4,361 bases of DNA from a virus (Duplodnaviria > Heunggongvirae > Uroviricota > Caudoviricetes), in the IMG/VR virus record IMGVR_UViG_2695420643_000010, positions 1 through 4,361 of that record; one strand, given 5' to 3'. Positions 2,323-3,636 of this stretch are shown here, one piece after another. How positions within the stretch are numbered: position 1 is the stretch's first letter; every line of letters begins with the position of its first letter. The notes beneath the pieces were generated by a model, which did no database searches, had not been told where the DNA came from, and worked only from the letters and a program-made list of their open reading frames with translations. The translations under genes and the position numbers were made by a program.

Positions 2323-3636
2323 ATGACAGTAAAAATTTCTGGCGTGCTTAAAGATGGCACAGGAAAACCAGTACAGAACTGCACCATTGTGCTGAAAGCC
2401 AGACGGACCAGCAGCACGGTGGTGGTGAACACGGTGGCCTCTGAAAATCCGGATGAAGCCGGTCGTTACAGCATGGACGTTGAGTACGGTCAGTACAGCG
2501 TCATTCTGTTGGTGGAGGGCTTCCCGCCGTCACATGCCGGGACCATCACCGTGTATGAAGATTCTCAACCCGGTACGCTGAATGATTTTCTCGGTGCCAT
2601 GTCGGAGGATGACGTCCGGCCGGAGGCACTGCGTCGTTTTGAACTGATGGTGGAAGAAGCGGCGCGTCACGCAGAGGAGGCGAAGAAGAATGCCGGAGAG
2701 GCGGAGACATCAGCGAGGAATGCCGGCATATCAGCCAGTCAGGCAGAAGCGAGCGCGGCAAATGCTGACACTTCAGCAGGGGATGCATCGGAGTCAGCCC
2801 GGCAGGCGGCAGAAAGTGCAGCCGCTGCAAAGCAGTCAGAGGAGGCGTCCTCGTCCTCGGCCTCTGCGGCCGCTCAAAAAGCCAGTGAGTCATCACAAAG
2901 TGCAGCAGAAGCTGAATTGTCAAGAAAGACGGCAGAAAGTGCAGCCGGTAATGCAGCCAGGGATGCAACGACCGCAGCAGAAAAAGCCCGGGAGTCAGCA
3001 GAAAGCGCACAGTCAGCGGAACAAAGCAGGATAGCGGCGGAAGAGGCCGTAAACCGAATCCCCACCGTGGTGGGGCCACCCGGACCAAAGGGAGAACCGG
3101 GGCCCGCGGGTCCTCAGGGGCCGAAGGGAGATAAAGGAGAGCGTGGTGACACCGGCCCTGTCGGGGCAACCGGCGAACGGGGACCGGGAGGAGATACAGG
3201 TCCGGCAGGTCCGCAGGGGCCGAAAGGCGACAGGGGAGAGCGGGGAGAGACCGGGCTGACAGGAAGTACAGGTCCACAGGGTCCAAAGGGAGACACCGGG
3301 GCAGCAGGCCCGGCAGGCCCACAGGGACCGAAAGGAGAAACAGGTGTGGCTGGCCCGGTAGGGGCAACCGGACCTCAGGGGCCGAAGGGCGACCCGGGGG
3401 AGACGCAAATACGGTTCCGTATGGGGCCGGGAAACATTATTGAGACAAACAGCAATGGCTGGTTCCCGGATACAGATGGCGCACTCATCACCGGACTGAC
3501 CTTTCTTGACCCCAAAGATGCCACACGGGTTCAGGGTTTTTTTCAGCATTTGCAGGTCAGGTTTGGCGACGGGCCGTGGCAGGATGTTAAGGGACTGGAT
3601 GAAGTGGGCAGTGATACAGGCAGAACAGGAGAATGA
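2323..3636 (+). CDS. stf: Side tail fibre protein (Stf-like) with Ala/Ser/Glu-rich segment and collagen-like Gly-X-Y repeat region
   Basis: 437 aa. GGTGGA 5 nt upstream of ATG 2323. N-terminus [22 protein letters not shown]...[38 protein letters not shown] matches the conserved N-terminal domain of lambda Stf as I recall it. It is followed by a low-complexity A/S/E-rich segment, 36 Gly-X-Y triplets and a 77-aa C-terminal tail. Stop TGA 3634-3636. Confidence 0.85.
2641..3057 (+). repeat. Low-complexity Ala/Ser/Glu-rich (probable coiled-coil) coding segment inside stf
   Basis: The translation is dominated by A, S, E, Q and K (for example [82 protein letters not shown]). GC-rich GCN/AGC/GAR codon runs leave the other frames and strand open. 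Confidence 0.6.
3073..3399 (+). repeat. Collagen-like Gly-X-Y repeat tract (36 uninterrupted triplets) within stf
   Basis: Direct translation: [110 protein letters not shown]. The submotif GPQGPKG occurs five times. Confidence 0.93.

What the first reader, a model, noticed from the sequence alone, without database searches (positions are those of the whole stretch)
2323..3636. Short Stf-like fibre: conserved N-terminal domain, A/S/E-rich rod, 36 collagen triplets, then only a 77-aa tail
The ORF keeps the lambda-Stf-type N-terminal domain but is only 437 aa and ends 77 aa after the collagen tract ([77 protein letters not shown]). I see no long distal receptor-binding domain, and no recognisable tail-fibre-assembly (Tfa-like) gene follows. 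Either the fibre is a truncated remnant or a compact receptor-binding tip is used. The five near-identical [15 protein letters not shown] segments are also potential recombination substrates for fibre swapping.
Basis: partly seen in the sequence, partly recalled or inferred. Interest (0 to 1): 0.45.

Follow-up and report, generated by a model that had tools for sequence, protein, structure and literature searches.

The report
Known collagen-like prophage side tail fibre
This is an intact copy of a published, biochemically studied collagen-containing side tail fibre (the "EPclA" type) that lambda-like prophages of pathogenic E. coli carry in many copies; it is not a truncated lambda fibre, so the finding is ordinary, although what its small tip binds is still unknown.

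Summary
It has a lambda-Stf-type N-terminal domain, an Ala/Ser/Glu-rich heptad rod, 37 uninterrupted Gly-X-Y triplets and a 76-77 aa tail.

The "truncated remnant" reading is wrong.
- The tail is Pfam PF06820 (Phage_fiber_C, aa 363-426).
- The whole layout, at 437 aa, is the EPclA architecture of Ghosh et al. 2012 (PMC3368898). It is the commonest collagen-like fibre in E. coli O157:H7 prophages.
- Recombinant EPclA was shown to be a trimeric dumbbell with a true collagen triple helix. Its C-terminal domain (PfC) is a self-trimerising module.
- The viable phage Lambda_2B8 has the same 437-aa gene in the same position.

It is known but unexplained.

My additions:
- Natural length variants (4-37 triplets) are mostly in-frame deletions with junctions at the GPQGPK repeats.
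- All domains are under purifying selection.
- The tip is highly conserved.
- The tip has no solved or confidently predictable fold.

Its receptor is unknown. Novelty: already known.

The parts
1..1504 (+). 3' part of the gene for the central tail tip/host-specificity protein J, cut off by the window start. It sets the tail-gene context.
   Evidence: Pfam Ig_J, Ig_J_second, Phage_Tail_Tip and Ig_GpJ_C, E 1e-15 to 7e-40. Annotated gpJ in matching genomes.
1572..2171 (+). lom (Ail/Lom outer-membrane protein) gene lying between J and the fibre gene, as in lambda.
   Evidence: Pfam Ail_Lom, E 3e-123 over 1-199/199. Terminator-like hairpins at 1523-1542 and 2275-2304 flank it.
2323..3636 (+). Complete EPclA-type side tail fibre gene, 437 aa.
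   Evidence: ORF. Pfam PF08400 + Collagen + PF06820. PHROG tail fibre families. Same length and position in phage Lambda_2B8 and E. coli 14EC007. Architecture as in Table 2 of PMC3368898.
2323..2601 (+). aa 1-93: collar (tail-attachment) domain of the Stf type.
   Evidence: phmmer hit to PDB 9e7m_Ta/9mgh "Tail fiber protein", residues 1-93 to 1-93, E 2e-50. The Ur-lambda structure shows that this domain forms a 12-copy collar at the gpV/gpM junction.
2635..3072 (+). [quoted passage not shown]
   Evidence: Composition. Ala periodicity of 3.5 residues, 0 of 2000 shuffles reaching it, in a continuous heptad register. Shown experimentally to be a trimeric coiled coil with Tm ~52 C in rEPclA.
3073..3405 (+). 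aa 251-361: 37 uninterrupted Gly-X-Y triplets (collagen triple helix, about 30-32 nm), with five GPQGPK(G) repeats.
   Evidence: Imperfect 99-nt and 45-nt DNA periodicities. Triple helix with Tm 42 C and 30 nm length measured for rEPclA. Deletion junctions in natural variants.
3409..3600 (+). aa 363-426: PfC (Pfam PF06820 Phage_fiber_C), the distal knob. It is a self-trimerising module that nucleates the triple helix and is the presumed ligand-binding tip.
   Evidence: PF06820, E 1.6e-34, 1-64/64. The published PfC construct is residues 363-426 and is trimeric by SEC/MALLS. Mean pairwise identity 94.8% in 64 fibres. No solved homologue.
3601..3633 (+). aa 427-437 ([11 protein letters not shown]): conserved C-terminal extension, predicted disordered. 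Its last codons hold the ribosome-binding site of the next gene.
   Evidence: pLDDT below 50 for these residues. The same terminus occurs in all EPclA-type homologues. AGGAG at 3626-3630 lies 7 nt before the ATG at 3638.
3537..3543 (+). T7 run inside the PfC coding region. Loss of one T joins the fibre to the downstream gene's frame.
   Evidence: Alignment with L006 (T6), which encodes the 494-aa fusion P0107. The +1 frame is open for 46 codons upstream of the small gene's ATG. The run is not conserved: G4T6 in 14EC007 and absent in Lambda_2B8.
3638..3907 (+). 89-aa gene for a stand-alone PfC paralogue with a 27-aa Cys/His-containing N-terminal leader. Its start lies 1 nt after the fibre's stop codon. 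Function unknown.
   Evidence: PF06820, E 5.5e-36. 35% identity to the fibre's PfC, E 5e-14. PHROG 576, full length. Thousands of member sequences in E. coli, E. albertii and Citrobacter rodentium. dN/dS 0.06-0.16. The Sp5 homologue ORF68 is non-essential.
3922..3948 (+). Terminator-like hairpin followed by a T-run, ending the tail operon.
   Evidence: 12-pair stem plus T tail.

Best explanation
The ORF is an intact EPclA-type side tail fibre of a lambda-like prophage, of the kind that carries tccP next to its tail genes.

Proposed mechanism, with the basis for each step:
1. Three chains form one fibre. Shown for recombinant EPclA.
2. The N-terminal ~93 residues are the Stf collar domain. It docks the fibre on the tail at the junction of the last tail-tube ring and the tip complex. 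In Ur-lambda twelve domains give four fibres. Inferred here from strong homology to that solved structure.
3. A short linker leads into an Ala/Ser heptad coiled coil of about 15 nm.
4. A hinge follows, then a collagen triple helix of 37 triplets, about 30 nm long.
5. The ~64-residue PfC domain forms a ~7 nm terminal knob. PfC trimerises by itself and re-nucleates the triple helix after melting. This explains why no Tfa-type chaperone gene is needed. Lambda's Tfa serves the gp37-like distal domain, which this fibre lacks. The trimerisation is published; the link to the missing Tfa is my inference.
6. The knob is the only part placed to touch the cell. It most likely makes the first, reversible contact with a conserved surface component, speeding adsorption before J engages its receptor, as Stf does for lambda. 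Inferred; the ligand is unknown.
7. The GPQGPK repeats make the collagen segment prone to in-frame deletion. Populations therefore hold fibres from 4 to 37 triplets long with the same two ends. Shown here from natural variants.
8. The 89-aa PfC-only gene that follows is a conserved, selected gene of unknown role.
For: - Domain architecture.
- Collar-domain match to PDB 9E7M/9MGH. Its structural role.
- Heptad periodicity.
- Triplet count.
- Identity of layout, length (437 aa; PCoil 116; Col 111) and construct boundaries with published EPclA.
- Published biophysics (trimer, triple helix Tm 42 C, coiled coil Tm 52 C, PfC trimeric, dumbbell 55-62 nm long).
- Same gene pair after J and lom in phage Lambda_2B8 (93.8% aa identity) and in E. 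coli 14EC007, next to tccP2 and the prophage end.
- At least 80% of the 2323-3907 query (fibre gene plus small gene) is covered in 135 phage records. PfC is encoded in 296 phage records.
- The PfC-plus-small-gene module is in 698 of 5426 complete E. coli genomes, median 11 copies.
- Purifying selection in all domains.
- Related EPclB is a virion fibre by immuno-EM and is essential in Sp5. It forms the six lateral fibres of phi24B.
- Deletion junctions at the GPQGPK repeats.
Against: - No experiment has shown EPclA on a long-tailed virion or identified a ligand for PfC. The authors themselves say the tail-fibre role is strongly suggested but not proven.
- PfC is about 95% conserved across fibres, which is unusual for a receptor-binding tip.
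- Lambda_2B8 fibres reportedly do not recognise BamA. I saw this only as a citation in the phi24B preprint.
- The phi24B authors doubt that a signal could pass along such a flexible fibre.
- The PfC fold could not be predicted with confidence: pLDDT 58.7 and 60.5.
- Many prophages carrying this gene are defective, so expression of this particular copy is not shown.
Confidence: 0.85

Rival explanations
1. Truncated remnant. The gene is a lambda-type stf that lost its long distal receptor-binding part, and with it tfa, and is decaying.
For: It is 437 aa against the much longer lambda Stf described. It has no Pfam match to the Stf distal repeats or to a Tfa. Many EHEC prophages are defective (introduction of PMC3368898).
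Against: - The C-terminus is a defined, conserved domain (PF06820), not a broken end.
- The same 437-aa form recurs in many prophages and in a viable phage.
- All homologues end in the identical ...[12 protein letters not shown].
- dN/dS is well below 1 in every domain.
- The recombinant protein folds into a stable trimer.
Confidence: 0.03
2. Structural tip only. PfC is purely a folding and trimerisation nucleus for the collagen helix and binds nothing specific. Any specificity comes from another protein mounted on it, possibly the 89-aa PfC paralogue. Otherwise the fibre acts only as a non-specific tether or spacer.
For: - PfC is shown only to trimerise and re-nucleate the helix.
- It is about 95% conserved.
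- Fibres with this tip reportedly do not bind BamA.
- In the sister architecture that ends in a Peptidase_S74 domain, the gene in the same downstream position encodes a Gp38_N-type protein, i.e. a separate tip adhesin.
Against: - The Sp5 homologue of the small gene is dispensable for infection and lysogenisation.
- Recombinant EPclA folds without the small protein.
- No interaction data exist.
- Conservation of PfC fits a conserved ligand equally well.
Confidence: 0.2
3. Bacterial-benefit collagen. The protein serves the lysogen as a collagen-like adhesin or immune-evasion factor, like streptococcal Scl proteins, rather than the phage.
For: - Collagen-like proteins of other pathogens bind host matrix, and Ghosh et al. 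leave this possibility open.
- The gene sits beside the cargo genes lom and tccP.
Against: - No signal peptide or anchor is evident.
- The N-terminus is a virion collar domain.
- Reported expression is linked to phage induction.
- The related EPclB is located on virion tails.
Confidence: 0.03

Closest known systems
   Same: - Same four-part layout (PfN, PCoil, Col, PfC).
- Same total length (437 aa), PCoil length (116) and Col length (111).
- Same residue numbers for the construct boundaries.
- Same genomic place after J and lom.
- Same kind of prophage, with tccP downstream, as in CP-933U/Sp14.
   Different: Only allelic differences. There is about 94-97% amino-acid identity to the two 437-aa homologues I could align. 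No complete E. coli genome in the collection matches the whole window at 99% or more.
Lambda side tail fibre Stf (Ur-lambda; PDB 9E7M/9MGH) with its chaperone Tfa
   Same: Homologous N-terminal collar domain (E 2e-50), followed by an Ala/Ser-rich coiled-coil rod. Same gene position after J and lom. Presumably the same accessory adsorption role.
   Different: There is no gp37-like distal domain, no OmpC-binding tip and no tfa. Instead it has a collagen triple helix and the 64-aa PfC knob. It is therefore not a member of the full-length Stf family, only of its N-terminal module.
EPclB lateral fibre of short-tailed Stx phages (933W L0121, Sp5 ORF67/ECs1228, phi24B gp61) with the downstream ORF68
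   Same: PfN-type start, coiled coil, collagen segments and a closely related PfC tip, followed by an 89-aa PfC-only gene.
   Different: EPclB is 645 aa with two collagen segments separated by a Pf2 repeat. It is mounted on a podovirus tail, where it is essential. Here there is a single collagen segment on a lambda-type long tail, where side fibres are expected to be accessory.
EPclD-type fibres ending in a Peptidase_S74 intramolecular chaperone domain (Shigella and E. coli prophages)
   Same: Same PfN, PCoil and collagen segments, 85-93% identical over the shared part.
   Different: The C-terminus is PF13884 instead of PF06820. The following gene encodes a Gp38_N-domain protein instead of the PfC-only protein.

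Membership tests
EPclA architecture (Ghosh et al. 2012) | N-terminal PfN domain (Pfam PF08400) | tested here: met
   PF08400, E 1.1e-68, aa 1-133 of a 134-position profile.
EPclA architecture (Ghosh et al. 2012) | Low-complexity Ala/Ser-rich heptad region (PCoil, about 116 aa) between PfN and collagen | tested here: met
   Ala 31%, Ser 16%, Glu 15% in aa 101-253. 3.5-residue Ala periodicity, 0 of 2000 shuffles reaching it, in a continuous register. Collagen starts at aa 251, as in the 116-aa PCoil forms.
EPclA architecture (Ghosh et al. 2012) | A single uninterrupted (Gly-X-Y)n domain | tested here: met
EPclA architecture (Ghosh et al. 2012) | C-terminal PfC domain (Pfam PF06820) | tested here: met
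   PF06820, E 1.6e-34, aa 363-426, full profile. These are the same residues as the published PfC construct.
EPclA architecture (Ghosh et al. 2012) | Location among the tail genes of a lambdoid prophage | tested here: met
   J, then lom, then the fibre gene, in the window and in related records.
EPclA architecture (Ghosh et al. 2012) | Trimer with collagen triple helix and coiled coil; PfC trimerises | not testable with these tools
   Shown for recombinant EPclA from the Sakai strain. The monomer AlphaFold2 runs here cannot address it.
Lambda Stf (full-length side tail fibre) | N-terminal collar domain that binds the tail | tested here: met
   Residues 1-93 match PDB 9e7m/9mgh, E 2e-50.
Lambda Stf (full-length side tail fibre) | gp37-like distal domain with receptor-binding tip | tested here: not met
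   No Pfam family other than PF08400, Collagen, PF06820 and a sub-threshold CarboxypepD_reg match. The protein ends 76 aa after the collagen tract.
Lambda Stf (full-length side tail fibre) | Downstream tail fibre assembly gene (tfa) | tested here: not met
   The downstream ORF hits only PF06820. A terminator follows, then tccP on the other strand. In 14EC007 the prophage ends there.
Receptor-binding protein with a known fold | Tip domain homologous or structurally similar to a solved receptor-binding domain | tested here: not met
   - No PDB sequence or profile match for PfC at or below E 0.05; the four listed hits, at E 0.052-0.23, look like chance.
- Low-confidence models: pLDDT 58.7 and 60.5.

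The most novel reading that the evidence does not exclude
The 89-aa PfC-only protein is not a spare cassette but a working partner of the fibre. It could be a second tip subunit that caps or mixes into the PfC trimer. Alternatively, it could be joined to the fibre at low frequency by slippage at the T-run in PfC. Either way one prophage would make fibres with two alternative tips. This would be a compact tip-diversification device, analogous in position to gp38 or Tfa but built from a paralogue of the tip itself.
Probability: 0.1. Interest if true: 0.5.

Novelty: already known. Interest (0 to 1): 0.15.

Why it matters
As a finding it closes a question rather than opening one. The short collagen-containing fibre is the normal, complete and published side fibre of EHEC/EPEC lambdoid prophages. 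It occurs in about 13% of complete E. coli genomes, at a median of 11 copies each.

Three things about the family remain open:
- The fold and ligand of the PfC tip. They bear on how Stx and effector-carrying phages find new hosts.
- The role of the conserved PfC-only gene.
- Whether fibre length, which varies from 4 to 37 triplets through deletions at the GPQGPK repeats, tunes adsorption through different O-antigen layers.

Tried and rejected
- **Single-chain "linked trimer" of PfC.** This was meant to mimic the obligate trimer.
- **Profile search of the PDB with the PfC alignment.** Only chance-level hits, at E 0.05 or above.
- **Search of 1.84 billion representative proteins with PfC.** The family is essentially confined to Escherichia-type prophages.
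  - The few distant hits are multi-stretch matches to long repeat proteins.
  - These carry Big_7 Ig-like repeats with a "VxVRxGDGPW" motif, or phage-fibre repeats such as "LDxxGKIPxxDGSxIT" and "HIQWRxGxGAWQNL".
  - They suggest PfC is built from fibre-shaft-like motifs, but they are too weak to assign a fold.
- **Programmed frameshift joining the fibre to the small gene.**
  - The window has a T7 run in phase, and the small gene's frame is open for 46 codons upstream.
  - Natural 494-aa fusions exist through loss of one T.
  - However, the run is G4T6 in 14EC007 and absent in Lambda_2B8, and about half of the fibres have Leu or Val at that codon.
  - I therefore treat the fusions as mutations or homopolymer sequencing errors, not as a conserved mechanism. 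Mondal et al. also found no frameshift signal.
- **Kuznetsov et al. 2025 on Lambda_2B8 fibres.** I looked for this paper and it is not in the library. I know it only through the phi24B preprint.
- **Protein search with the 77-aa tail.** It returned almost only partial proteins from broken assemblies and says nothing about length distribution.
- **Full-length protein search.** It listed no 437-aa cluster among the best 120 hits. The 437-aa form is documented instead.

Full report
**What is in the window.** The 4361-bp window is the right end of the tail operon of a lambda-like prophage.
- Bases 1-1504 encode the C-terminal part of the central tip protein J (Pfam Ig_J, Ig_J_second, Phage_Tail_Tip, Ig_GpJ_C).
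- Bases 1572-2171 encode Lom (Ail_Lom, E 3e-123).
- The finding's ORF lies at 2323-3636 (437 aa).
- An 89-aa ORF follows at 3638-3907.
- A terminator-like hairpin lies at 3922-3948.
- On the opposite strand is the 3' end of a tccP/espFU-type effector gene made of EspF repeats.

E. coli strain 14EC007 has the same order: gpJ, lom, a 1314-nt fibre gene, a 270-nt gene and tccP2. A tRNA-Ser and chromosomal hya genes come next, so the prophage ends there with no further tail gene.

**Checking the observation.** Every descriptive element holds.
- The N-terminal domain is Pfam PF08400 (aa 1-133, E 1.1e-68).
- Residues 1-93 match the solved Ur-lambda Stf collar domain (PDB 9E7M/9MGH, E 2e-50).
- Residues 101-253 are 31% Ala, 16% Ser and 15% Glu.
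- Ala recurs with a 3.5-residue period that none of 2000 shuffles reached. It stays in one continuous heptad register (xAxxxAx) over about 20 heptads.
- The Gly-X-Y run spans aa 251-361. This is 37 triplets counting the final GET and 36 otherwise. A tail of 76-77 residues follows.
- GPQGPKG occurs five times.
- At DNA level these five 21-nt segments differ at 2-5 positions, and the longest exact repeat in the tract is 17 nt. They are near-identical as peptides and less so as DNA.
- The tract also has imperfect 99-nt and 45-nt periodicities.

**What the tail is.** In fact residues 363-426 are a full-length match to Pfam PF06820, "Putative prophage tail fibre C-terminus" (E 1.6e-34). The complete layout is PfN, an Ala/Ser coiled coil (PCoil), one collagen domain (Col) and PfC. 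This is the EPclA architecture defined by Ghosh et al. 2012 (PMC3368898).
- Their Table 2 lists EPclA copies in nearly every lambdoid prophage of O157:H7 EDL933 and Sakai.
- The primers used for their PfN, PfN-PCoil and PfC constructs map in the window to aa 1, 137-140, 247-250, 363 and 421-426. These are the residue numbers they report.

That criterion is essentially met. The one clause not met is "with a known receptor-binding fold".

**What is already established experimentally (from the papers).** Recombinant EPclA has these properties:
- It is a trimer.
- Its Col domain gives a collagen CD spectrum and melts at 42 C.
- PfC alone is trimeric and lets the triple helix refold quickly.
- PfN alone is monomeric.
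- In rotary-shadowing EM the molecule is a hinged dumbbell 55-62 nm long. It has a ~16 nm thick segment, a ~30 nm thin segment, and knobs of 8 nm (PfN) and 7 nm (PfC).

The related two-collagen form EPclB has also been studied:
- It is on the tail of the Stx2 phage Sp5 by immuno-EM and is essential there.
- It forms the six lateral fibres of phi24B, attached by its N-terminal domains.

In Ur-lambda, twelve Stf collar domains ring the junction between the last gpV ring and gpM. They carry four trimeric fibres that speed adsorption.

**Evidence gathered here that this copy is intact and typical.**
- Phage Lambda_2B8 (NC_049952), a lambda-like phage obtained by induction, has J, lom, a 1314-nt gene and the small gene in the same order. 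Its fibre is 93.8% identical to the window's.
- At least 80% of the 2323-3907 query, i.e. the fibre gene plus the small gene, is covered in 135 phage records.
- The PfC domain is encoded in 296 phage records, both long- and short-tailed Stx phages.
- The PfC-plus-small-gene module is present in 698 of 5426 complete E. coli genomes, with a median of 11 copies per genome.
- Pairwise dN/dS between the window, Lambda_2B8 and 14EC007 is 0.07-0.43 for PfN, PCoil, Col and PfC. The counts are small.
- dS differs strongly between domains of the same pair. For Lambda_2B8 against 14EC007 it is 0.011 in Col and 0.20 in PfN. This pattern points to mosaic recombination among copies.

**Why no Tfa.** Lambda's Tfa assists the gp37-like distal part of Stf. 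That part is absent here. PfC trimerises on its own and nucleates the helix. The absence of tfa is therefore expected, not a sign of decay. This link is my inference.

**The missed neighbour.** One base after the fibre's TGA, an ATG at 3638 opens an 89-aa gene. An AGGAG lies within the fibre's last codons.
- Residues 28-89 of the product are a second PF06820 domain (E 5.5e-36). It is 35% identical to the fibre's own PfC (E 5e-14).
- A 27-residue leader with Cys and His residues (LCGCGKHDDCEH) precedes that domain.
- The gene is a full-length match to PHROG 576.
- It has thousands of member sequences in E. coli, E. albertii and Citrobacter rodentium.
- Its dN/dS is 0.06-0.16.
- Its Sp5 homologue (ORF68) is non-essential and was proposed to be a reservoir sequence for tip variation.
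- In prophages whose fibre ends in a Peptidase_S74 domain instead of PfC, the gene at this position encodes a Gp38_N-type protein. The downstream slot therefore co-varies with the tip. Its function remains unknown.

**The repeats as recombination substrates.** Among EPclA-type homologues with the same two ends, the collagen tract ranges from 4 to 37 triplets. The pre-collagen part comes in several lengths: 250, 209, 187 or 136 aa.
- I modelled each distinct shortened tract as a single deletion from the window's 37-triplet tract.
- 18 of 31 variants have their junction inside a GPQGPK repeat. These include the commonest 19-triplet class.
- Most of the rest have junctions at GPVGAT or GPK repeats.

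What it produces is length polymorphism, not exchange of tips. Ghosh et al. noted length differences in multiples of three but did not map junctions.

**The tip: conserved, fold unknown, ligand unknown.**
- Across 64 fibres the last 76 residues are 94.8% identical on average, close to PfN at 96.5%. Variation is limited to a few positions.
- An exhaustive search of 1.84 billion representative proteins found the domain almost only in Escherichia-type prophages. A few weak multi-stretch hits went to repeat-rich fibre or Ig-like proteins.
- No solved structure matches by sequence or profile.
- Monomer AlphaFold2 models were of low confidence and gave no significant fold match. This fits the phi24B authors' remark that AlphaFold gave no confident model of this domain.
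- The same preprint cites work showing that Lambda_2B8 fibres do not recognise BamA.

The statement that PfC binds the cell therefore rests on position and on analogy with other fibres. It is the weakest step of the mechanism.

**Verdict.** The feature is an already known, well-populated family. Interest is low, with a modest residual question about the PfC tip and its stand-alone paralogue.

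Noticed in passing
window 4034-4361, minus strand: 3' end of a tccP/espFU-type effector gene (Pfam EspF repeat, E 2.7e-30), with tandem repeats of about 141 nt. The middle copy lacks one T near 4208 (GCTCGCAAG against GCTCTGCAAG in the two flanking copies). As read, the frame therefore breaks between the last two repeats. This is either a pseudogene allele or a sequencing error.
   Followed up: partly
window 3638-3907 (+): The 89-aa PfC-only gene has a conserved 27-aa leader with a C-x-C-x2-H-x2-C-x-H pattern. 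The third Cys is Arg in many homologues. A metal-binding role is conceivable and was not tested.
   Followed up: no
window 3537-3543 (+); L006 2726-4210: A T7 run lies inside the PfC coding region. Alleles with T6 encode 494-aa proteins in which the end of the fibre's PfC is replaced, through the +1 frame, by the whole small-gene product (P0105, P0107). The run is not conserved, so this looks mutational rather than programmed.
   Followed up: yes
protein P0055 (92 aa): A hybrid protein with the small gene's N-terminal half (MNILKKLMQRLCGCGKHDDCEH...ADILES) joined to the fibre's PfC C-terminal half ([20 protein letters not shown]...RTGE). It comes from either a deletion/recombination between the two paralogous PfC segments or an assembly artefact. 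It has a single member sequence on one contig.
   Followed up: no
L003-L005 3001-4834: Shigella boydii prophages carry a fibre with the same PfN, coiled coil and a short collagen tract, but with a Peptidase_S74 C-terminus. A Gp38_N-domain gene follows it instead of the PfC-only gene.
   Followed up: partly
window 2635-3072 (+) and homologues: The coiled-coil segment also varies in length among homologues. Collagen starts at aa 251, 225, 211, 189 or 137. The 41-aa difference is not a multiple of seven, unlike the pattern noted by Ghosh et al. I did not map the junctions.
   Followed up: no
window 1523-1542, 2275-2304, 3922-3948 (+): Each of J, lom and the fibre/small-gene pair is followed by a strong terminator-like hairpin. 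This would make lom and the fibre genes depend on antiterminated late transcription, or allow separate expression of lom.
   Followed up: no
proteins P0344-P0346: The two halves of PfC each resemble a unit that is tandemly repeated in long fibre-like or Ig-repeat proteins from metagenomes: "LDxxGKIPxxDGSxIT", and "HIQWRxGxGAWQNL" or "VxVRxGDGPW". This is a weak hint about the origin and fold of PfC.
   Followed up: partly
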